Shown here: positions 34,783-54,163 of the stretch, in pieces
Layout of the letters: each line of letters starts with the position of its first letter
How positions within the stretch are numbered: position 1 is the first letter of the stretch
IMG/VR virus record: IMGVR_UViG_3300019742_000002
Location: 27,724-91,723 of that record
Origin: a virus
Reading direction: 5' to 3' (one strand)
Length of the DNA stretch: 64,000 bases
Made by a program: the position numbers and the translations under genes
Notes under the pieces: generated by a model
Database searches by the model: none
The model's input: only the letters and a program-made list of their open reading frames with translations
What the model was told of the DNA's origin: nothing

Positions 34783-35556
34783 AAAGATTAACTAAAGTGT
34801 TTATTAGTTTTTCTTATTAATTTATTTTTTTAAAATATGAAAGCAAATTTAAGATAGCTCTATCTTTTTTCATATTTAAAACTTTTTATATAAAATACCT
34901 CCGTTTAATTCCCTTTTTTACATTTCATCTATAAGTTTTAATTCATTAATATATAACTATAAAAAGATACTCTTCAATTAAACATAATAAATAATATCTA
35001 TAGTTTACAGTTGCTCAAAAGAGTATCTACGATTAAATATATTAATTTATAACTTTTAAAATTTTTTATTCTTTTCTTTATTATAAGAGTTTTTATTTAC
35101 AAATTTCACTTTTTATAAGTTTTTATTATATTTAAACTATTATATTCAATCGTAGATACTCTTTATAAATTTCATATAGTAATTCACTTTATCTACTATA
35201 GTCAATCAAAACAATACTTCAATATAAACTATGTACTATTTAATCATCCATAAACTACCTTTAAACCACTTTAAATAATATATCCTATACCTTACTATTA
35301 AAATCAATTAATAAAGCCTTAAAATACCCAATAAAATCATCTATGATTAAAACTATAATAAAAACTTATAATAATCAAAATTTGTAAATAAAAACTCTTA
35401 TAATAAAGAAAAAGAATTAAAAATTTTAAAAGCTATAAATTAATATATTCAATCGTAGATACTTTTTTATTTTAAATGATTAAGTAATTATATACTATAG
35501 ATATTAAATGATGATTATAGATGAAATGTGAAAAAAGGAATTAAACGGAGGTATTT
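34783..35556. repeat. quasi-palindromic repeat block A (element copies 2 at 35021-35161 and 3 at 35338-35462)
   Basis: Two opposed elements flanked by opposed AAATACCTCCGTTTAATTCC motifs; inverted homolog at 52447-53049. Confidence 0.88.
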
Positions 35557-44774: not shown

Positions 44775-44782
44775 TATAGCTT

Positions 44783-44892
44783 ATGAAGTGTACAAAAATA
44801 CTTTAGTTGTTAGTATTCCAAAAACATATAGCATTTGTATTATATATGGTCGATTCGACACAATTACAAATACTGAAAAATCTACACTTCAT
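44783..44892 (-). ncRNA. retron-like msr/msd ncRNA, unit 2
   Basis: 10-bp terminal IR ATGAAGTGTA/TACACTTCAT, followed by GATT, stem capped by GTGTCGAATCGACC, short msd-like hairpin. Confidence 0.65.
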
Positions 44893-44910
44893 TAACTAAA
44901 GGATATAAAA

Positions 44911-45103
44911 TATAAACCCTTAAAGATGATTACACTTTGTTTCGAGGATGTGGTTATATCCTGTAATCTTGTAGATTTCTGCTCTTGGAAATCTACAAGA
45001 TTTATGTACTAACATTATAAAAGGTCGATTCAACACTCTAGCTATGTACTTTCTTGTATGTAAAATACAGAAATTAATCTGTAATCATCTTTAAAGGTTT
45101 ATA
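44911..45103 (-). ncRNA. retron-like msr/msd ncRNA, unit 1
   Basis: ~23-bp terminal IR, followed by GATT, two stems incl. GTGTTGAATCGACC, 15-bp msd-like hairpin AATCTTGTAGATTTC/GAAATCTACAAGATT; no ORF. Confidence 0.75.
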
Positions 45104-45120
45104 TCCTTTTTTATGTTATA

Positions 45121-45143
45121 ATTTTACTATAACTTTACTTAAA
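45121..45143 (-). promoter_or_regulatory. early-type promoter driving the ncRNA units
   Basis: TTTAAG-N11-TAAAAT, a variant of the recurrent TTTAAG..TATAAT motif. Confidence 0.55.
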
Positions 45144-45154
45144 ATATTCTAAAT

Positions 45155-45460
45155 TTACAACTCTTCTATGTAAATATTTTCTAAAGCCTCATCAAACATA
45201 TCATTGATACATTTTATATGTTCTTGTCTATTTCTTTCAATTAGTTTAAGCTTTTTAGTTAAGGCTTCCTCCTTATTGGTAAATAAATAAGAAGCTTTTA
45301 GAATTGTATCATAGTCTCTAGTGTTTTGAGAGCTATCAACCAAATTTTTGTCATTATATGTATATATTTTAATACAACTATTTATATGAGGTAATCCTAC
45401 ACTATTTCTACAAGGTTCATTATTCCTAAATATTCCATATATTATTGTTCCATTTTTCAA
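45155..45460 (-). CDS. hypothetical protein
   Basis: ORF between RT and ncRNAs. Confidence 0.55.
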   Translation of the reverse strand: MKNGTIIYGIFRNNEPCRNSVGLPHINSCIKIYTYNDKNLVDSSQNTRDYDTILKASYLFTNKEEALTKKLKLIERNRQEHIKCINDMFDEALENIYIEEL

Positions 45461-45472
45461 GATTTAATCCTT

Positions 45473-45799
45473 TTATTTATAGTCTTTATATACCTTACTT
45501 GTATAATTTGTTTCTACTGATATTGAGTAATTACCTAAATCGACATAACAACCATCTTCATCGTATGACTCTGCAAGAAAACCATAAACATCACAGCCAA
45601 AATAATGTGCTAGTAGTTCATCTTTCCTACCCAGTGTTATTCGTATGTAACAATATTCGTATAATTTATATAGTAAATCATCCTTATCTTTGTATTCAAA
45701 CTCAATTCTCACTTTTTCTTGGTACTGTTTAATTTCTTTATTATCTAGTAGTAGATAAAAGTCTGAGTCTGTTCCTATTGTTAGTAATGCTCTTTTCAT
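45473..45799 (-). CDS. hypothetical protein
   Basis: ORF with own promoter/RBS cassette. Confidence 0.65.
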   Translation of the reverse strand: MKRALLTIGTDSDFYLLLDNKEIKQYQEKVRIEFEYKDKDDLLYKLYEYCYIRITLGRKDELLAHYFGCDVYGFLAESYDEDGCYVDLGNYSISVETNYTSKVYKDYK

Positions 45800-46041
45800 T
45801 TTAAATCCTTTGTTTTAATATTCTAATTATAGCTAATTAAACTTAATATAAGCTTAATTGTTTATAGTAATCCACCACTTTTCATTTCAAAAACTGATAC
45901 AGTTCCATATATACTATTAGCATACTCAATAATACCTTTAAGAGCTTTTTGTTTTGTAGTAAATGGTATATCTATAACTCTAATATCATTTAAATTATAT
46001 ACTACCTCTATTTATTAAACTAAGCAAATATATCTATTATG

Positions 46042-46389
46042 TTATGACATTATTACTTTTTTATTTTCATTGTATATACTAAGTGTTGTCTTTAAGATTA
46101 AGTTCCAGTTATTTTTATTCGTTTTTATATTAAACTTTTTATATTTTTTAATATATTTAACACATATATCCTTAATAAAATAATCAACAGGACAACTTCC
46201 GTCTGCCATTCCCCAAAACCTATCATGATATGATTTATCGCCAACATATTGAATAAATCCTTTGTCATAAGGGGCTATCCTAATATAACCATATTCCACA
46301 TCTAATAATTCTTTCATTAGTTCAATAGGTAAAAATACTTTTTTTAATTTTATACCTTTAGTTTCGTACATTATACATTCACTCATCAT
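46042..46389 (-). CDS. hypothetical protein
   Basis: ORF with own promoter/RBS cassette. Confidence 0.65.
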   Translation of the reverse strand: MMSECIMYETKGIKLKKVFLPIELMKELLDVEYGYIRIAPYDKGFIQYVGDKSYHDRFWGMADGSCPVDYFIKDICVKYIKKYKKFNIKTNKNNWNLILKTTLSIYNENKKVIMS

Positions 46390-46441
46390 CTAATCCTTTG
46401 TTTTAATATTCTAATTATAGCTAATTAAACTTAATATAAGC

Positions 46442-47491
46442 TTAATTATTTGATTGATTTTTCCAATTTGTTAATCCACCTAAAGATGAGTTATTAGATT
46501 GATGTTTTGATGCTCGTATCTTTCTCATAATCTTTCTAGTAGCTTGTGTATTTTTATCTCCTACATTTATACCCAAGATTCTTCTAAATCCATACTTAGC
46601 ATATCGTATTCTAGTTTTAGATTTATTAATACTTAAGCCAAAATTATTAAATACATTTGATACTATTTCTATAAGATTATTAATATCTTCGTGGTTTTCG
46701 GTATTTGTGCTTAATTGAATATCATCAGCATAAATAGTCAATTTAAAACTTATATCTAAATCTTTATGATAATATACCAAAATAGGCACTAGAATATCTA
46801 AAATAGGCACAAGTGATATATTAGCTAACATAGGACTTGTAACAAATCCTTGGGCTGTTCTTTCATCATCTACTGTAAAACATTCATCAAAGTTTTTATA
46901 ATCTTTGATGGGTTTAAAAGCTTTATTATCTTTATGAATAGAATCAAAGAAGTTACTTATATCCATCATAATTGTACTTTTAAAACCTATATGTTCTTTG
47001 GCACAAGTAACTGGACTTTTATTTTTAAGAAAACCATGCAAAAGATTTTTATTAGGACTTTCAAGGTTATTGAAGTAAGTATATAGTTGTTTCAACATAC
47101 CTCTTTGAGTCTTTTTAAGTTCTTTTGATGGAATACATATAGTTCTAAATCCTTTTCTCTTCTTTGGTATTTTAGATTCTTTGTATTTTTTGGTTGGTGT
47201 TGGTTTTAAATTTGGTGAAATATCTTCAAATAAATCTTCATACTTAACTTCTTTACAATTTTTGAAGTTTTCTGCATTTATACTCCAATTAAAAAACCAA
47301 CTTTCTTTACATCCATCATCAAATATAAAACACCTATCACAAGGAATTTTTGAATGGTCGTAAGAACATCCCACAAATTCGCATAACCTTATATACTTCT
47401 CTTGTGTCCACTCACCATTACTATAAAAAGCAAGATTTCTAATCTCACCTTTACTATTTCTTAATTTTTCTAATTCTTCTTTTAAAGTCAT
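46442..47491 (-). CDS. retron-type reverse transcriptase with N-terminal ~90-aa repeat domain
   Basis: KIPKKRKGFRTICIPSKELKKTQR, HGF..CAKEH (NAxxH region X), DISNFFDSI, QGFVTSPMLANI, YADD, INKSKTR, RILGINV (VTG-like region Y); start at MTLKEE behind AAGGA. Confidence 0.9.
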   Translation of the reverse strand: MTLKEELEKLRNSKGEIRNLAFYSNGEWTQEKYIRLCEFVGCSYDHSKIPCDRCFIFDDGCKESWFFNWSINAENFKNCKEVKYEDLFEDISPNLKPTPTKKYKESKIPKKRKGFRTICIPSKELKKTQRGMLKQLYTYFNNLESPNKNLLHGFLKNKSPVTCAKEHIGFKSTIMMDISNFFDSIHKDNKAFKPIKDYKNFDECFTVDDERTAQGFVTSPMLANISLVPILDILVPILVYYHKDLDISFKLTIYADDIQLSTNTENHEDINNLIEIVSNVFNNFGLSINKSKTRIRYAKYGFRRILGINVGDKNTQATRKIMRKIRASKHQSNNSSLGGLTNWKNQSNN

Positions 47492-47492
47492 C

Positions 47493-48260
47493 CTATAATC
47501 CTTTATATTTCCATCTAAAACCATAAGCAGTATACTTATTAATATCCTTCAATGCTTTTGAAATCCCCACATAAGAGGAGGAAGGTAATTTCAATTCCTT
47601 TCCTGCTTCCGTCATATTTTTAAATTCGTTTAAAACCTCTAAAGAATCTTTATCAAGTTGTAGTATTTCTAACCCAACTCTCTTAGAATATGATTTTTTA
47701 GCCTCTATAAATCTAGTATTATGTAAATCATCGGTAACTTCATCCATAAATATAAAGAAATATTCCCCTACAGTCTTTTGTTTTGTATTTCCTCTAGCTA
47801 CACTAGATATATTAGCCCTATTTAAACCCAATACCCTAGATGCTTGGGAGGCACTAACATACGAATTTAGAAATTTTCCGGTATTGACACAATACTGGTT
47901 TAAAGGTTTAAGCTGTACTCCATATCCATCTTTTCTTGCTTGGTTACCATTTTCATTATTTTCTTTCCATGTCATTAGCTGTATATTGTCGAATGAGTAG
48001 TGTTTATTATTATCTAATCTGTCAAAAGACGGTCTTAAATTTTGCTCAAAACCTGAGTCCTTCCAGTTATTATAAAGTCTAATAAATAAATCACTATCTA
48101 AAAACGTAACTAGTAACTCATTAATTGTATAATCGGGTAGAGGGTGACCTCTTTGCATACTTTTCCTCTCTTGGGATTTAAATAAATCTTTTAGTAATCC
48201 CTCTGGTCTATATTTACCTATTCTTAAAATTAAATTCTCCAGCTTTTGTTCCCTATTCAT
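47493..48260 (-). CDS. HNH-like homing endonuclease with NUMOD-type DNA-binding repeats
   Basis: PSFDRLDNNKHYSFDNIQLMTWKEN; two [SY/EF]xSxxxAxxxL...G(Y)xF/W modules. Confidence 0.8.
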   Translation of the reverse strand: MNREQKLENLILRIGKYRPEGLLKDLFKSQERKSMQRGHPLPDYTINELLVTFLDSDLFIRLYNNWKDSGFEQNLRPSFDRLDNNKHYSFDNIQLMTWKENNENGNQARKDGYGVQLKPLNQYCVNTGKFLNSYVSASQASRVLGLNRANISSVARGNTKQKTVGEYFFIFMDEVTDDLHNTRFIEAKKSYSKRVGLEILQLDKDSLEVLNEFKNMTEAGKELKLPSSSYVGISKALKDINKYTAYGFRWKYKGL

Positions 48261-48307
48261 AATCACCTCTTTTATATTATTTATATACATGGTTTATAAC
48301 ATAAATC

Positions 48308-49120
48308 CTACTTTAACAACCTAGGTTTTCTTCTCTTAACCTTAGTTAAAATCTCATCAATTTCTTTATCAAGATTAAAATCAGCTATAGAAACTGTATT
48401 TTTGGGATTACCTACCATTGCCTCAGCATCAGAAATCATTTCATAGGATGCCCATCCAAAAGTTCTTTTGGAATTTGATGTAAAAAATAGAAATTCTTTA
48501 GGTTTTATAGGCATTCTAAACTTCTTTAAATTATAGGAATAACAAGTATTAGATGGTTTACCTGATACATGGTTCACAACATACACCCTCATACCAATAA
48601 CCTTAGATAAAGCCGATACAAGTGCAAATAAAGCATAAGAATTATTCCTTATAGTTGAGTTACTAACCTCCCAACTATAACTAAGGTTAATATAAATATC
48701 GTGGAATAATTTAGAATCATCATAGGTAGAGTTTTTGAAATAACAATCTCTTCTACCCAACATAGCTCTAGTTTTACTCATCATTCCTGTATTCTCAGTT
48801 GAAAACTCTACATTGCCATATAAAAGAGATGTTTTAAATCCTCTTGCTATTAGTTTAGATTTTACTTTTTTAGCTACATCATCATATAACTTATCATAAT
48901 TTGAATCTTTTTCGTCTAATTTCTTATAAGCTTTTATACCCTCTTCAATATAAAATTTACCCTCTTGATTAGCTAACTCTTTATTAGCTATAATAGTATC
49001 CATAAAATCAATTGGATTCTCAAAATGGTTATATATTGTATTATTTGTCCATCTTGTATCAGTACAACCCTCTAAAATTTTAGGTACTTCATTAGGTTTT
49101 GTGTTTAATTTTTGAATCAT
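48308..49120 (-). CDS. vWA-like partner of MoxR ATPase
   Basis: Directly follows the AAA gene; DIYINLSYSWEV resembles a degenerate MIDAS strand. Confidence 0.5.
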   Translation of the reverse strand: MIQKLNTKPNEVPKILEGCTDTRWTNNTIYNHFENPIDFMDTIIANKELANQEGKFYIEEGIKAYKKLDEKDSNYDKLYDDVAKKVKSKLIARGFKTSLLYGNVEFSTENTGMMSKTRAMLGRRDCYFKNSTYDDSKLFHDIYINLSYSWEVSNSTIRNNSYALFALVSALSKVIGMRVYVVNHVSGKPSNTCYSYNLKKFRMPIKPKEFLFFTSNSKRTFGWASYEMISDAEAMVGNPKNTVSIADFNLDKEIDEILTKVKRRKPRLLK

Positions 49121-49172
49121 TCTCTATTCCTTTTTATTTATTATATATAATATTTACTTAAATCCTCTTTAA

Positions 49173-51587
49173 TTATGAATTAAATATATCCATATCTTCA
49201 AAAAGCATATTATAATCATTCAACTCTTTAGATATAATCAAATTATCTACAATTCTCTCAACATCTCTAGGAGGTAAATCTTTAAATTTGACATTAGATT
49301 TAGTATTAACCAATTCCTTAGCTTCAAGAATATTATCTAATCCATATCTAATAGCTAGATGAGGTTCTTTAAGATTATAAATAACAACTTGAAACCTTGC
49401 TATGGTTGCTTTATCCATTGGACTTCTTGCATTATAATCCTCCGAATAAGTAAGAGTATTTGCTGTAGCAATTAACCTAAAATTAGAATGAACATTAACT
49501 AACTTATCAGGAAATTGTACTGTATCTTTTTTCAATCCATTTAATATTAATAGAGTATTAGGATTACAAGCATCTATTTCATCAAAGATATAAACTTTAC
49601 CATTTTCTACAGCGTCTCTAAGTAGAGGTGATTTATATTCAAGAGTAGTAAAGCTAAAGAAACCTTCTAAATCATCTTTAGTAATTTGAGCATTACCTTT
49701 TTCAATAACATACTCCATATTTTTATCTTTGGCATAATCTATTGCTAAATTTGTTTTACCACTTCCTGAATCACCTACTAACATTACCCATTCTTTTCTT
49801 TTAATTTTTAAAGGATGGTCTAACATTACCTTTACTTTTCTAAGAATTTCTTTATCTTTTGCCTCTAAATCTTGAATATCTATAGAATACTTTTTAGAAA
49901 TATTTGATAACTCATAGGAATATTCTAAAATATTTTCATTTTTCTTTTTAGCTGTTTTAAATTTAGTTTCAAAAGATTCCTTAGAATATATAGTATTATC
50001 TACCATAACATTACCACAAGAATAGTAAGTAGGTTCAATAATATAATCAGTTTTTCTGCCAAATATTCTAATAATTTCATCGTCTTTTATATTACTTGAT
50101 GTAGTTTTATAAGATTTCGAGTTAATTCTTATTACTATATCGGTATATATTTTATTATCTTTTAGGTATACAACTACATCACCTGTACTAATCTTATTCT
50201 TTTCATACACCAACCAACAATCTTCTTGATTCATAATAGATTTTTTAAATTCTTGAATAAGTCTAATATCATTTTCTGAAATAATCAAATCACCTTCATT
50301 AATTTTGTTGAGATTTTTCATCTTTGGTTTTGGGTTTTTCCAACTAGTTTGAATGATAGAAATTTTAAGTAAATTTTTGGAAGATTTTTGTTTGATTTCT
50401 TCTATGTCTAACGGAATGTCTTTAACTATATTACTAAGGTCATCTTCTTGGGTGTCTTTTGTGGTTTGTTTTGTGTTAAATATATCTTCATAAGCTACTT
50501 GTTTAAGGTTTGGGAAATTAGAATGGTGTTCTTGAATATTCCAACTAAAATATGTATTCCTATACTCACTATAGAATATCCACTTAATGCTTATATCTAA
50601 TCCTTTAGAAAACTCTACAGTTTTAGTAAATGTTAATATATTTTTATACTCACTATCCGTCCAATCTTCACCAGATTTCTTATAGAAAGCTAAATCTTTA
50701 ATTTTGCCATCTTTATCTCGTAACTCTTCTAACTCTTCTCTTAGTGAATTTGTAGTTGTCATATTTAATCCTTTTTCGTTTATTATGTCTTTTAGGTAGA
50801 AAATATTATAATTGTTTGCTATGTAACTTACATCTTTTGATGTAGTTCTTAATGTGTTATTTACTCCAATAAATATATATTTATTACTAAAATTATATTC
50901 CCATACGCTTTGACCACTAGACCACCTAAAACCATTCTCATCTAAAAGTTTTAAAATTATATTCTTATCTTCTTCATTATCCCAAGTTATACAAATTTTG
51001 TTATCTTTAGTCCAATTTAACAATTCTTTTTTAAGAGTATATGTATTTTGAGTAGGAACTAAAGGTTTTGGTTTCTTTGAGTACAGTTCTAGGAAATCTT
51101 TTGGTGTGATTAGTTTTGTATCTTCAAGAGGTATAGTATTAGTATTTAGTTTAGTTTCTATATTAAATGTTCTAAAATATTGAAATGATTTACTACCACT
51201 CCACCAATATACACCATTCCCAAAACAACATTCTTGAACCTCTTTGGATTCATTTTCGGTAAGATTTTCTAGTCTAAACTTTCTATCTTTTAATGGGATT
51301 ATGTTAATTTGTGATGATTCAAAAACATCTTCATATCTAACTTTTCTACAATTTTTGAAGTTATCATCACCTTTATTCCAATTATAAAACCAACCATGCT
51401 CTGAATTATTATCAAAGATATATTCTCCTTTACACAAATTTTCAGGTAAAAATCTACCCTTATCACCTATAAATTTATGTACCATTTTGATATTCTCATT
51501 AGTCCACTCACCATCACTATAAAAAGCAAGATTTCTAATCTCACCTTTACTATTTCTTAATTTTTCCAATTCTTCTTTTAAAGTCAT
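49173..51587 (-). CDS. multi-domain protein with C-terminal MoxR/CbbQ-type AAA+ ATPase
   Basis: GDSGSGKT, IFDEIDA, HSNFRLIATANT, MDKATIARF; N-terminal half is tandem small domains, two homologous to the RT N-terminus. Confidence 0.88.
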   Translation of the reverse strand: MTLKEELEKLRNSKGEIRNLAFYSDGEWTNENIKMVHKFIGDKGRFLPENLCKGEYIFDNNSEHGWFYNWNKGDDNFKNCRKVRYEDVFESSQINIIPLKDRKFRLENLTENESKEVQECCFGNGVYWWSGSKSFQYFRTFNIETKLNTNTIPLEDTKLITPKDFLELYSKKPKPLVPTQNTYTLKKELLNWTKDNKICITWDNEEDKNIILKLLDENGFRWSSGQSVWEYNFSNKYIFIGVNNTLRTTSKDVSYIANNYNIFYLKDIINEKGLNMTTTNSLREELEELRDKDGKIKDLAFYKKSGEDWTDSEYKNILTFTKTVEFSKGLDISIKWIFYSEYRNTYFSWNIQEHHSNFPNLKQVAYEDIFNTKQTTKDTQEDDLSNIVKDIPLDIEEIKQKSSKNLLKISIIQTSWKNPKPKMKNLNKINEGDLIISENDIRLIQEFKKSIMNQEDCWLVYEKNKISTGDVVVYLKDNKIYTDIVIRINSKSYKTTSSNIKDDEIIRIFGRKTDYIIEPTYYSCGNVMVDNTIYSKESFETKFKTAKKKNENILEYSYELSNISKKYSIDIQDLEAKDKEILRKVKVMLDHPLKIKRKEWVMLVGDSGSGKTNLAIDYAKDKNMEYVIEKGNAQITKDDLEGFFSFTTLEYKSPLLRDAVENGKVYIFDEIDACNPNTLLILNGLKKDTVQFPDKLVNVHSNFRLIATANTLTYSEDYNARSPMDKATIARFQVVIYNLKEPHLAIRYGLDNILEAKELVNTKSNVKFKDLPPRDVERIVDNLIISKELNDYNMLFEDMDIFNS

Positions 51588-51677
51588 ATTCAATCCTTTT
51601 TATTAATTTTTATATTAATCTACCGAAATATTCTAATATAAAAATTAATACCAACCCAAAAGAGGGTTGATAGTTTT

Positions 51678-52058
51678 CTAAAGTAATCCACCAATAGGTT
51701 TATTTATTCCTGAAATATTTCTAAGGACAGCATTACTTGCAATGATATTAGCAGTTTCTTGAATAAGAATTTTTTGAGCTAATTCTTCACCTAGTTTTAG
51801 AGTCATAGAATCAATATCTACATTCTCAACAGCATTAAGAACATTAACATATTCAGCTCTAATAAATTCCCATTTTGATTCTTCATCTAAAATAGAAACA
51901 CTCATTGCCCCGTAAGCTGTTTCAACTTTTGGTGATTTTGGTGTAATCTCAATTCCATCAATTTTAGAAATTTCTACAGCTTCTTGAACTACATTGATTA
52001 CAGCCTCTAGGTCTTTTGTTTGGATAGCTTCAGTTAGTGATTTGTTAGTTTTAGACAT
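51678..52058 (-). CDS. hypothetical protein upstream of AAA gene
   Basis: AAGGAG RBS; followed by CAACCC-AAAAGA-GGGTTG hairpin. Confidence 0.7.
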   Translation of the reverse strand: MSKTNKSLTEAIQTKDLEAVINVVQEAVEISKIDGIEITPKSPKVETAYGAMSVSILDEESKWEFIRAEYVNVLNAVENVDIDSMTLKLGEELAQKILIQETANIIASNAVLRNISGINKPIGGLL

Positions 52059-52446
52059 TTAAGTCTCCTTTTGTTTTTGTTTTTGAGTATTTGAACTCTT
52101 ATTGGTATTATATCTAAAAGTTACTTAAATGTAACTTAAACCTCTTTAAAATCTTTTAGGATATTTTAACTCATTTTTAATCCTTTATGTTTTGATATTT
52201 AGATTATATAGTAAGTTAGCTTAAATCTTACTTAAATATATAATCTTTTATGAATTTATTTTTACTGATTTATATGTCATAAAATTTATTTGTAAATTAG
52301 TAACAGTTTTATCGTATTCTATAATATCTTTTTTACTTAATTTAACTCTTCTTTTAAGTAATACCTAGTCTTGTGTTGCCATTTTAAATCCTTTGTTTGT
52401 TTTGATACTCTAATTATAGCCATCTAAACTTAAAAATAAAATAAAA

Positions 52447-53049
52447 GTATCTACGATTGAATATAATAATTTATATTTTTTAAAATTTTTATTCTTTTCT
52501 TTATTATAAGAGTTTTTATTTACAAATTTCACTTTTTATAAGTTTTTGTTATACTTTTAATCTTAGATGGTTTTGAATAAAAATGGTTATAATAGAGGAT
52601 GTAAGCTTATTTTAATTGATTTAATAGTATGTATATGGTATTAGATTTAAAGATGTTTAAATGTGTATTAAGGGTATTTAAAAGATATAGAAGTATATAA
52701 GAGTATCTACGATTGTAATATAATAGTTTAAATATAACAAAAACTTATAAAAAGTGAAATTTGTAAATAAAAACTCTTATAATAAAGAAAAAGAATAAAA
52801 ATTTTAAAAAATATAAATTATTATATTCAATCGTAGATACTTTTATTTTATTTTAGAATTATACACAAATGAATTAAACTTATATGTGAAATGTAAAAAA
52901 GGGAATTAAACGGAGGTATTTTAAATCAAAAGTTAATTTAAAAAGTTTTAATTTTGAAAATTTAAAAAAGACATTACTATCTTAAATTCACTTACATATT
53001 TAAAAAGGGTATTAAAAAGAAAAACTAATAAAACACTTTAGTTAATCTT
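52447..53049. repeat. repeat block B (element copies 6 at 52447-52569 and 7 at 52701-52840), inverted homolog of block A
   Basis: Same motifs in reverse order and orientation relative to 34783-35462. Confidence 0.88.
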
Positions 53050-53085
53050 ATTAATTTTTATGTTGTAGCTTATTGTTTGGTATTA

Positions 53086-53634
53086 CTATATAGATTTCCT
53101 AAAAGTTAAAGAAATCCTTGGAGTTAATATCTTATTTTGTTTTGGTATTTCGTGAGTAAAATGTTCTTGAAATCCTTTCTTCATAATAAATAAACTTCCA
53201 TGTTCTACATTAATAGTTTTCTTATAGGTTTTATCATCACTTCTAATAGTAAATTTTCTAGTTGTCCCTAAAGATATTACATAGATTGATTCGTTGGAGT
53301 CCATAGACTTTTCATCGTCTTTATGTTTAGCTATAGAATCACTTCCATCTCTATATAGATTCAATAAACAAGAATTTAAATTATGATTATCTAATTCTTT
53401 CATTATATCCTTTACCACTTCAATCATTTCACAAGGTTCATTATGCAACCCTGAATAGTCATAGGAATTTTTGGAATACCATTTAACCATTCTAGGCATT
53501 TTGACCTCTCTACCATAAAATTGATATGAATGGCTTACCCAATCAACTTGTTTCATAATATCTCTAAAATACTCTTTACCTTTTTGAGGCTCTATATATT
53601 TTGGTAAATATTCAAAATAACTTTCATAATCCAT
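53086..53634 (-). CDS. AlkB-family 2OG-Fe(II) dioxygenase
   Basis: NSCLLNLYRDGSDSIAKHKDDE (HxD), FTHEIPK, RISLTFR. Confidence 0.92.
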   Translation of the reverse strand: MDYESYFEYLPKYIEPQKGKEYFRDIMKQVDWVSHSYQFYGREVKMPRMVKWYSKNSYDYSGLHNEPCEMIEVVKDIMKELDNHNLNSCLLNLYRDGSDSIAKHKDDEKSMDSNESIYVISLGTTRKFTIRSDDKTYKKTINVEHGSLFIMKKGFQEHFTHEIPKQNKILTPRISLTFRKSI

Positions 53635-54163
53635 CTAAAATTCCTTTAATTTCTTTTATACATTTTTTATAATCTATATTCTCAACAACATAATCGAATT
53701 CATTTTCTATAATATCTTTTGGATATAATTCTAAATCATCTTTTAGCCTTCTATTAAATTCTTCTTGACAAAATGAACCTCTTGATATAGCTCGTTCTCT
53801 TCTAATTTCTATAGGTGCATCGATAAAAATAGAGATAACTTTAAATTTGTTTCTAATCGCTTTAAGACCTTTTAAATCTAGTACTGATATATAATTACCA
53901 TATTTTATAGAGGATTTATGAATACCATAATACCAAGTATCTGTATTAGTTATATATTTTCTATACTCTAAGAATTCATTATTTTTTATTTTATTTTTGA
54001 AGTTTTCTTTAGAAATAAAATGATATTCTTTACCGTTTATTTCTTTCTTTCTAATAGGTCTTGAAGTATATGATATAATTTCTTTAAATTTATAGAGGTT
54101 TTTTATATTATTTAGGATAGTATCTTTACCTACTCCTGAAAATCCTGATAGAATTATAATCAT
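53624..54163 (-). CDS. gmk: guanylate kinase
   Basis: SGFSGVGKDT, SYTSRPIR..E.NGKEYHF, YYG. Confidence 0.9.
   Translation of the reverse strand: MIIILSGFSGVGKDTILNNIKNLYKFKEIISYTSRPIRKKEINGKEYHFISKENFKNKIKNNEFLEYRKYITNTDTWYYGIHKSSIKYGNYISVLDLKGLKAIRNKFKVISIFIDAPIEIRRERAISRGSFCQEEFNRRLKDDLELYPKDIIENEFDYVVENIDYKKCIKEIKGILDGL

What the first reader, a model, noticed from the sequence alone, without database searches (positions are those of the whole stretch)
46442..52058. RT and a MoxR AAA+ ATPase share an N-terminal domain within one gene cluster (AAA-vWA-HNH-RT)
Seen: the RT starts MTLKEELEKLRNSKGEIRNLAFYSNGEWT...W..NW....NFKNC..V.YED.F. The AAA protein starts with the same domain; its first ~85 nt differ at only 2 positions (47407-47491 vs 51503-51587). 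It also carries a further diverged copy (SLREELEELRDKDGKIKDLAFY...W...NFPNLKQVAYEDIF). Known: MoxR ATPases act with vWA proteins as remodelling chaperones. Inference: the shared ~90-aa domain may dock the RT/msDNA complex onto the MoxR-vWA machine or send both to a common target. I do not recognise this retron-partner architecture. Alternatively it is simply a mobile domain duplicated by recombination.
Basis: partly seen in the sequence, partly recalled or inferred. Interest (0 to 1): 0.85.

Follow-up and report, generated by a model that had tools for sequence, protein, structure and literature searches.

The report
Phage RT and ATPase share domain
In one lineage of large uncultured phages, a retron-like reverse transcriptase and a neighbouring CobS/MoxR-type ATPase carry copies of the same unnamed ~92-residue domain, which is real and widespread in phages but is not a general feature of either enzyme family.

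Summary
The RT (46442-47491, minus strand) begins with a ~92-aa domain ("N-dom"). The 804-aa AAA_5 ATPase (49173-51587) carries it twice (BLASTP 2e-31 and 5e-13). The first 28 codons of the two genes differ at 2 nt.

N-dom is a genuine domain family with no Pfam or PHROG name. It has 86 cluster representatives: about 30 stand-alone proteins of 82-135 aa and about 50 mosaic fusions. Its AF2 model is confident (pLDDT 88) and has no PDB fold match.

About 100 RT relatives lack N-dom. Only one 96%-identical relative (L092) has it, twice, and that relative has no HNH gene. The HNH gene is therefore a mobile homing endonuclease.

The "vWA" protein is DUF7192; a vWA fold could not be shown.

RT and the AAA-DUF7192 pair each occur alone in complete phage genomes. 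Where both are present they are adjacent, in a replication-module slot.

Independent support for an N-dom link to the ATPase module: a stand-alone N-dom gene lies in the module in G002, and three N-dom-like ORFs flank DUF7192 in G003.

N-dom also has a ~100-nt hypervariable block between near-identical phages.

Verdict: a lineage-specific accretion of a probable recognition/adaptor domain. Docking is plausible but unproven. The scan had already noted the RT's ncRNA-like units in this same window.

The parts
51678..52058 (-). p126: conserved first gene of the p126-(small ORFs)-AAA-DUF7192 module; function unknown
   Evidence: HMM matches upstream of the ATPase in L013, L018, L081, L095, L103, L104, L106, L111. 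No Pfam hit. Unrelated to N-dom by hhalign.
51649..51672 (-). terminator-like hairpin between p126 and the ATPase gene
   Evidence: 9-bp stem, 4 GC pairs, T-rich tail. Consensus match only.
49173..51587 (-). 804-aa ATPase: N-dom / X region / N-dom / Y region / AAA_5 core
51312..51587 (-). N-dom copy 1 of the ATPase (aa 1-92)
   Evidence: BLASTP 56% identity, E 2e-31 to the RT copy; HMM
50751..51311 (-). X region, no relatives found. Contains a 21-aa/63-nt stretch (50928-50990) resembling the start of the T4 MotA C-terminal domain.
   Evidence: MotCF, E 0.007; blastn 81% over 63 nt to T4-like motA; no other matches
50466..50750 (-). N-dom copy 2 of the ATPase (diverged)
   Evidence: BLASTP 35% identity, E 5e-13; HMM 1e-23
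49884..50465 (-). Y region: N-terminal extension shared with the long forms of this ATPase in other phages
   Evidence: phmmer matches to the L095, L096 and L081 ATPases
49392..49787 (-). AAA_5 core (Walker A GDSGSGKT, Walker B IFDEID)
   Evidence: Pfam AAA_5, 58 bits against a cutoff of 22; alignment; PDB profile hits to midasin, CobS, CbbQ, NorQ
48308..49120 (-). p270: DUF7192-family protein, constant partner of the ATPase. A vWA fold was not shown.
   Evidence: (8 of 11 family members hit DUF7192, best 2.3e-13)
47493..48290 (-). free-standing HNH + NUMOD homing endonuclease gene, a mobile insertion
   Evidence: Absent from L092, where p270 is followed directly by the RT. Absent from L013, L095, L096. 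A homologue sits in another context in L087.
46442..47491 (-). 349-aa reverse transcriptase = N-dom + compact retron-clade RT core
47216..47491 (-). N-dom of the RT. Codons ~43-75 form a hypervariable block relative to L092.
46586..47170 (-). RVT_1 domain (fingers/palm, YADD)
   Evidence: residues 119-313 of the 360-aa ORF; alignment A2
47407..47491 (-). 85-nt tract nearly identical to 51503-51587 (probable gene-conversion tract)
   Evidence: 2 differences in codons 1-28, then 10 of 12 codons differ
46392..46451 (-). 60-nt promoter/RBS-like cassette. It is repeated at 45804-45863 and, diverged, at 52391-52450. The first two copies bracket the p115 gene, which L092 lacks.

Best explanation
N-dom is a small, independently folding phage domain of about 90 aa with no existing name. 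It has a conserved scaffold (RNLAFYK...W-T...YIFDDG...W...NFxNC.VAYEDxF) and variable loops.

Its most likely home is the p126 / CobS-MoxR-like AAA+ / DUF7192 module of large uncultured phages. There it probably serves as a recognition or adaptor piece, binding a client, a partner protein or another N-dom. In some phages it is a separate small gene in that module. In the window's lineage it was fused twice to the N-terminus of the ATPase, which is the usual place for substrate or adaptor domains in AAA+ proteins.

It was then copied by local recombination onto the next gene of the same transcription unit, a compact retron-clade RT. That RT sits in this genomic slot for independent reasons. The fusion would bring RT and ATPase to the same ligand or to each other.

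Shown here: the domain, its family, its fusions, the synteny, the conversion tract, the variable block and the mobility of HNH.

Inferred: the binding or adaptor role, and any RT-ATPase contact.
For: Domain reality:
- 86 representatives at E<=1e-3 and 27 at E<=1e-10.
- stand-alone proteins of 82-135 aa exist.
- AF2 pLDDT 88, pTM 0.79.

Link to the ATPase module in three lineages:
- Fused to the ATPase here.
- Stand-alone gene directly after the p126-like gene and 1.3 kb before AAA-DUF7192 in G002/L103.
- The only three N-dom-like ORFs of complete genome G003 flank DUF7192.

Recognition-like behaviour:
- Between the window and L092 the RT core is 96-97% identical. In a ~100-nt block of N-dom, 37 of 93 nt differ, against 8/126 and 7/73 in the flanks.
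- The same region varies in length across the family.

Local copying:
- Codons 1-28 of RT and ATPase differ at 2 nt, followed by an abrupt break.
- The RT carries one N-dom here and two in L092.

Co-transcription: there are gaps of 52, 17 and 1 nt between AAA, p270, HNH and RT, with no terminator-like site on that strand.

ATPase class. The solved relatives (CobS, CbbQ, NorQ, midasin) all work with a vWA/MIDAS partner; that statement rests on established knowledge, not a test here.
Against: - N-dom is dispensable for both enzymes. About 100 RT relatives lack it, including those in the same p126-AAA-DUF7192-RT synteny (L013, L095, L096).
- Complete genome G004 has the whole cluster and no N-dom.
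- No other AAA protein with N-dom was found among 5.8 billion clusters.
- 15 or more AAA-DUF7192 loci have no N-dom nearby.
- N-dom also occurs far from any such module (G001) and in about 50 mosaic proteins of unknown role.
- The three G003 ORFs match only weakly (E 1e-5 to 7e-4) and may be one tandem-duplication event.
- No fold or family hit gives a biochemical function.
- No interaction was tested.
Confidence: 0.5

Rival explanations
1. Neutral domain shuffling. N-dom is simply a promiscuous mobile module of phage mosaic proteins. Recombination between nearby short homologies copied it onto two adjacent genes. The copies are tolerated but do not couple RT and ATPase functionally.
For: - The domain sits at many positions in about 50 mosaic clusters.
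- Copy number differs between 96%-identical phages, and an HNH gene replaced one copy.
- There is an abrupt conversion tract.
- RT N-termini in this family carry other, unrelated extensions (P0017, P0027).
- Nearly all relatives of both enzymes lack the domain.
Against: - All copies keep open frames and the conserved scaffold residues.
- N-dom lies beside AAA-DUF7192 in two further lineages.
- Divergence is localised to the variable block, with a conserved scaffold around it. This looks selected rather than decaying.
Confidence: 0.3
2. Tripartite phage retron. RT plus ncRNA plus AAA-DUF7192 acting as its cognate effector or partner module, with N-dom as the physical link.
For: - RT lies within 0-2 kb of (p126)-AAA-DUF7192 in every lineage that has both: the window/L092, L013, L095, L096, L012, L018. 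The RTs in these loci are only 29-49% identical.
- The RT is retron-clade.
- IR-flanked ~130-300-nt units follow the RT in many relatives.
Against: - Each part occurs alone in complete or near-complete records. RT without DUF7192: G001, G006, G007. AAA-DUF7192 without RT: G002, G003, G009 and more than 12 loci.
- Both occupy the same slot just upstream of the primase/helicase genes, so adjacency may be positional.
- The IR-flanked units travel with the RT, not with the ATPase.
Confidence: 0.12
3. N-terminal targeting signal. The identical first 28 residues (an amphipathic MTLKEELEKLR helix plus the first strand) direct both proteins to one place, for example the capsid interior or a replication compartment.
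For: - The first 28 codons are kept identical, including at synonymous sites.
Against: - Identity at synonymous sites points to recombination, not protein-level selection.
- Most family members start at RNLAFYK and lack the helix.
- In L092 the same segment is internal, behind another N-dom.
- The domain is often in the middle of proteins.
Confidence: 0.05

Closest known systems
Retrons (RT + msr/msd ncRNA + effector), in particular RT-fusion retrons and type I-A (RT + PtuA ATPase + PtuB HNH)
   Same: The RT core scores best against retron RT models: PADLOC RT_III-A 3.5e-33, RT_XIII and RT_II-A; NCBIfam retron St85 at 113.7 bits. It has the AAxxH and ILG positions that correspond to retron NAxxH and VTG (alignment; the motif assignment is my own reading). 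IR-flanked non-coding units lie near the RT. An ATPase and an HNH gene are neighbours.
   Different: All scores are below the curated cutoffs (235 bits for St85). The RT family is much shorter (about 245 aa) and is found only in uncultured large phages. The extra domain is N-terminal and non-enzymatic. The ATPase is AAA_5, not the ABC/SMC-type PtuA. The HNH is a NUMOD homing endonuclease missing from close relatives. The candidate ncRNA units lie downstream of the RT, not upstream.
MoxR/CobS-class AAA+ ATPases with vWA partners (CobS-CobT, CbbQ-CbbO, NorQ-NorD, RavA-ViaA), and the MoxR-vWA pairs noted in jumbo phages (PMC7824862)
   Same: AAA_5 core with intact Walker motifs. The closest solved relatives are midasin, CobS, CbbQ and NorQ. 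A constant downstream partner gene of about 270 aa is present. PHROG phrog_249 ('porphyrin biosynthesis', CobS-like) matches at 1.9e-23.
   Different: The partner is DUF7192 with no detectable vWA or MIDAS signature. The module sits among replication genes (PolA, ligase, helicase, primase), not among virion or cofactor genes. Here the ATPase has a 570-aa modular N-terminal extension with two N-doms, and no other database protein has that.
Viral retron-like RT clades from metagenome surveys (Hlife 2024, PMC13681634: RTC3 and RTC5)
   Same: That survey reports retron-like RTs in Caudoviricetes metagenomes and suggests roles other than replication or DGR mutagenesis.
   Different: The survey does not describe N-terminal fusions, ATPase neighbours or this domain. 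Whether this family is RTC3 or RTC5 was not tested.
Diversity-generating retroelements (considered because an RT sits beside a hypervariable block)
   Same: An RT gene and a sharply bounded variable block in a nearby coding sequence.
   Different: Substitutions hit all four bases (13 from A, 11 from T, 7 from C, 6 from G). No template repeat was seen. The RT is retron-clade, not DGR-clade.

Membership tests
Retron | RT belongs to the retron RT clade | tested here: inconclusive
   The best PADLOC and NCBIfam matches are all retron RTs (3.5e-33; St85 113.7 bits). They fall below the curated cutoff of 235 bits. The group II RT model scores lower, at 67.5 bits. No tree was built.
Retron | Adjacent msr/msd ncRNA flanked by a1/a2 inverted repeats | tested here: inconclusive
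   IR-flanked units lie at 44777-44898 and 44910-45104, about 1.3 kb downstream. Similar units lie directly after the RT in L005, L006, L007, L008, L009, L013 and L014. Rfam gave no hit. No covariance test was done here.
Retron | Production of msDNA (RT-DNA) with a 2'-5' branch | not testable with these tools
   Needs an experiment.
Retron | Cognate effector gene(s) co-inherited with the RT | tested here: not met
   For AAA-DUF7192 as the candidate effector: G001, G006 and G007 have the RT but no DUF7192; G002, G003 and G009 have AAA-DUF7192 but no RT.
Retron type I-A (Eco7-like) | PtuA-type ABC/SMC-family ATPase | tested here: not met
   The ATPase is Pfam AAA_5. It matches no PADLOC retron or Septu ATPase model.
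Retron type I-A (Eco7-like) | PtuB-type HNH nuclease conserved with the RT | tested here: not met
   The HNH gene carries NUMOD/I-HmuI-like domains, hits the PADLOC 'homing endonuclease' model, and is absent from L092, L013, L095 and L096.
MoxR/CobS-class AAA+ (AAA_5) | AAA_5 core with Walker A/B and similarity to CobS/CbbQ/NorQ/midasin | tested here: met
   Pfam AAA_5 58.2 bits (cutoff 22). Walker A GDSGSGKT and Walker B FDEID. PDB profile hits: midasin 2e-34, CobS 8.6e-10, CbbQ 1.4e-8.
MoxR-vWA pair | Partner protein with a vWA fold and MIDAS motif | tested here: inconclusive
   The partner is DUF7192. It has no VWA Pfam hit and no PDB sequence hit even at E<=10. Its AF2 model is unusable (pLDDT 38). 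A conserved 'YI(N/S)xSYS' stretch after a predicted strand might be a degenerate MIDAS; that is my reading of alignment A9 only.
Free-standing HNH homing endonuclease | HNH plus NUMOD DNA-binding modules, and presence/absence polymorphism between close genomes | tested here: met
   The gene is absent at the same junction in the 96%-identical L092.
Diversity-generating retroelement | Adenine-specific differences between a template repeat and a variable repeat | tested here: not met
   The 37 differences in the variable block involve all base classes. No extra repeat of the block was found within 45000-54000.
N-dom (unnamed domain family defined here) | Scaffold RNLAFYK / W-T / YIFDDG / W / NFxNC / VAYEDxF, about 90 aa | tested here: met
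   All three window copies and both L092 copies align with 28 stand-alone family members. HMM E-values run from 1e-23 to 3e-42.

The most novel reading that the evidence does not exclude
N-dom is a docking module that physically couples a phage-encoded, retron-like RT (with its RT-DNA/ncRNA) to a CobS/MoxR-type AAA+ remodelling machine inside a lytic phage's replication module. This would be an ATP-driven phage 'retron' used for replication or counter-defence. The hypervariable loops of N-dom would set which host or phage target both enzymes are brought to.
Probability: 0.15. Interest if true: 0.75.

Novelty: new variant of a known kind. Interest (0 to 1): 0.45.

Why it matters
The finding defines an unannotated phage domain family. 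It has 86 clusters at 50% identity, a confident model and no PDB fold match. It ties that family, by gene neighbourhood in three lineages, to the enigmatic CobS-like AAA+/DUF7192 pair. That pair is widespread in large marine-type phages and is usually annotated as 'porphyrin biosynthesis'.

It also shows that a compact retron-clade RT family lives in the replication modules of uncultured large phages, and that it can acquire N-terminal add-ons.

If N-dom proves to be an adaptor, it would give a handle on what the phage CobS-like ATPase acts on, and on what a lytic phage does with a retron-like RT.

As it stands, the RT fusion is confined to one lineage, so the general significance is moderate.

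Tried and rejected
The neighbourhoods of the 86 N-dom proteins and of most RT relatives could therefore not be fetched. Only IMG/VR and JGI loci were available.
- N-dom fold: Foldseek against PDB gave no hit at E<=0.001. VIA-align wide gave best Z 2.3. BFVD gave best E 0.07. The ESM Atlas gave only unnamed clusters at 0.86.
- N-dom names and occurrences: Pfam and PHROGs have none. tblastn against 50,697 GenBank phage records found nothing.
- N-dom charge varies widely across the family (pI 4-9.7). No DNA-mimic or nucleic-acid-binding inference can be drawn.
- p270 as vWA: there was no PDB sequence hit and the AF2 model failed.
- p126 and the ~220-aa protein that precedes short ATPases are unrelated to N-dom and to the ATPase extension.
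- The X region (aa 95-281) has no relatives apart from a 21-aa MotA-like stretch.
- A tidy 'two paralogue types present in both proteins' idea was dropped. The first N-dom copy of the L092 RT (P0002) is 46-53% identical to all the other copies.
- The DGR idea was rejected.
- The giant palindrome at 52433-52854 was considered as the RT's ncRNA. It was rejected because it belongs to a genome-wide palindrome family.
- The genome search 'relatives' is not available for virus records.
- Literature searches found no description of DUF7192, of this domain, or of an RT-MoxR link in phages.
Full report
**Context.** The window is the last 64 kb of a single 91.7-kb virus record with 26% G+C. It encodes topoisomerase II subunits, NrdA/NrdB, PhoH and a gp55-like late sigma factor. 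It is therefore a fragment of a large T4-like or related phage. The same RT and ATPase proteins are also on a 173-kb contig.

**The cluster.** It lies on the minus strand, in this order:
- p126 (51678-52058)
- a terminator-like hairpin (51649-51672)
- an 804-aa ATPase (49173-51587)
- p270 (48308-49120)
- an HNH gene (47493-48290)
- the RT (46442-47491)

The gaps between the last four genes are 52, 17 and 1 nt, and no terminator-like site lies on that strand. They are probably co-transcribed.

**Check of the observation.** The RT N-terminus matches ATPase residues 1-90 (56% identity, E 2e-31) and residues 281-370 (35% identity, E 5e-13). At the DNA level, 47407-47491 and 51503-51587 differ at 2 of 85 positions. 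Codons 1-28 carry one synonymous and one non-synonymous change, and then 10 of the next 12 codons differ. That abrupt break, with synonymous sites preserved, is the signature of a recent recombination or conversion tract rather than protein-level constraint. An HMM of the copies finds no further copy in the 91.7-kb record. An independent assembly (L092) contains the same RT segment, so this is not an assembly artefact.

**Gene identities.**
- *RT.* It has RVT_1 (79 bits) and YADD. Its best matches in PADLOC and NCBIfam are all retron RTs (RT_III-A 3.5e-33; St85 113.7 bits), but below the curated cutoffs.
- *ATPase.* The core is AAA_5 (58 bits). A profile of it hits midasin AAA domains (2e-34), CobS (9e-10), CbbQ and NorQ in the PDB. 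It belongs to the MoxR/CobS class.
- *HNH gene.* It carries NUMOD/I-HmuI-like modules and matches homing-endonuclease models.
- *p270.* It is not demonstrably vWA. It scores weakly on DUF7192 (E 0.0036), but 8 of 11 family members hit DUF7192 (best 2.3e-13), and all 30 Atlas neighbours are DUF7192 clusters. It has no PDB sequence hit, and its AF2 model was unusable (pLDDT 38).

**What the shared segment is.** A profile of the three copies was searched against 1.84 billion representative proteins. It found 86 hits at E<=1e-3 and 27 at E<=1e-10.
- About 30 are stand-alone proteins of 82-135 aa.
- About 50 carry the domain at varied positions inside mosaic proteins of 160-945 aa.
- The other modules of those mosaics recur among themselves but have almost no Pfam or PHROG names.
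- None of the partners is an RT or an AAA protein.
- A word-indexed search with the ATPase N-terminus found no other AAA protein with the domain.

The family alignment shows a conserved scaffold and a length-variable middle. AlphaFold2 gives a confident alpha/beta model (pLDDT 88, pTM 0.79). That model has no fold match in PDB or BFVD. N-dom is thus a real domain family without an existing name.

**The RT family.** About 105 metagenomic proteins are 37-52% identical to the RT core. Nearly all are 245-275 aa and lack N-dom. Only P0002 carries it: 90% identity overall, 96-97% in the core. It has two tandem copies.

Its contig, L092, is 96% identical in DNA to the window across ATPase, p270 and downstream genes. 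It has p270 followed directly by the RT. The window's HNH gene sits exactly where L092 has the first N-dom copy. HNH is therefore a mobile insertion, and N-dom copy number is labile.

Between the two phages, 37 of 93 nt differ in a ~100-nt block of N-dom (codons ~43-75). The flanks differ at 8 of 126 and 7 of 73 nt. All base classes are affected, so this is not DGR-like. A conserved scaffold with a sharply bounded variable block is what one expects of a binding surface under diversifying selection or allele swapping.

**Synteny.** Profile HMMs were run over all fetched loci.
- *RT directly after (p126)-AAA-DUF7192:* the window, L092, L013, L095 and L096. In L012 a DNA ligase lies between them. 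L018 has the order RT, a 589-aa gene, p126, AAA, DUF7192. None of these other loci has N-dom, and complete genome G004 (the L013 contig) has none anywhere.
- *AAA-DUF7192 without an RT:* L081, L083-L089 and L104-L111. Complete genomes G002, G003 and G009 have no RT at all.
- *RT without DUF7192:* G001, G006 and G007. There the RT follows three unnamed genes and precedes helicase (phrog_1967) and primase (phrog_2135).
- *Position of the RT-less pair:* it lies between PolA and the same primase family.

Both modules therefore occupy the same slot in the replication gene block. That alone could explain why they are adjacent whenever both are present.

IR-flanked units of 130-300 nt follow the RT in both contexts and in the window (44777-45104). 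They do not follow RT-less ATPase modules. The candidate ncRNA goes with the RT, not with the ATPase.

**Independent link of N-dom to the ATPase module.**
- In complete genome G002 (L103) the gene order is: p126-like, stand-alone N-dom (E 5e-33), four small ORFs, AAA, DUF7192.
- In complete genome G003 (L088) the only three N-dom-like ORFs (E 1e-5 to 7e-4) flank DUF7192.
- Together with the fusion in the window, this makes three lineages.
- Against this, G001 has N-dom but no DUF7192, and most ATPase modules have no N-dom.

**Reading.** The best-supported account is as follows. N-dom is an accessory recognition or adaptor domain of the p126/AAA/DUF7192 module. In one lineage it became fused to the ATPase, and local recombination copied it onto the next gene, the RT. 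Whether this tethers the RT to the ATPase is plausible but untested; I put it at about 0.5. Neutral shuffling is the main rival, at about 0.3. A true tripartite retron, with AAA-DUF7192 as a dedicated partner of the RT, is unlikely because each part occurs alone.

**Literature.** Retron-like RTs in viral metagenomes have been reported (PMC13681634). MoxR-vWA pairs in jumbo phages have also been reported (PMC7824862). Nothing was found on this domain, on DUF7192, or on an RT-MoxR link.

Noticed in passing
window 52433-52854: Near-perfect ~136-bp inverted repeat around a 149-nt spacer, in the 1-kb gap upstream of p126 (RNA fold -157.6 kcal/mol, z -21). It is 77% identical over 470 nt to window 35019-35476. 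It therefore belongs to a palindrome family repeated in this genome and is not an RT-specific ncRNA.
   Followed up: partly
window 44777-45104; L005, L006, L007, L008, L009, L013, L014 just after the RT: Inverted-repeat-flanked units of 130-300 nt, sometimes in tandem, follow the RT in both synteny contexts. The palindromic motif GTCGAWTCGAC lies within about 400 nt of the RT in L009, L035, L092 (twice), L094 and L102. These are candidate retron-like ncRNAs.
   Followed up: partly
window 50928-50990 (ATPase aa ~202-222): A 63-nt stretch is 81% identical to the motA gene of T4-like coliphages, and the same 21 aa give a weak Pfam MotCF hit (E 0.007). It may be a small recombined fragment of a MotA C-terminal domain.
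   Followed up: no
window 46042-46389 with repeats 45804-45863 and 46392-46451: The p115 gene is bracketed by 98%-identical 60-nt promoter/RBS-like cassettes and is absent from the 96%-identical relative L092. This is a gene cassette gained or lost between direct repeats.
   Followed up: partly
L006, L007, L010, L011, L014 (upstream of the RT): A conserved trio of large genes without any Pfam or PHROG hit (families F3-F7-F1; about 450-660, 330-560 and 410-510 aa) precedes the RT in phages that lack AAA-DUF7192. Helicase and primase follow.
   Followed up: no
L083-L089, L103, L104-L111: The AAA_5 (CobS-like) + DUF7192 pair is a widespread module in the replication block, between PolA and primase, of uncultured large phages. 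It is often preceded by a p126-like gene and a ~220-aa gene. PHROGs labels the ATPase 'porphyrin biosynthesis', which this context does not support.
   Followed up: partly
P0112, P0117, P0141, P0147, P0183 and others: The mosaic proteins that carry N-dom share other recurrent unnamed modules. Examples are SH3-like 'KVGDTV' repeats and a C-terminal 'KTDLE..WLTIWY..LQKP..LG.TFRSY' module. This suggests a family of shuffled multi-module phage proteins.
   Followed up: no
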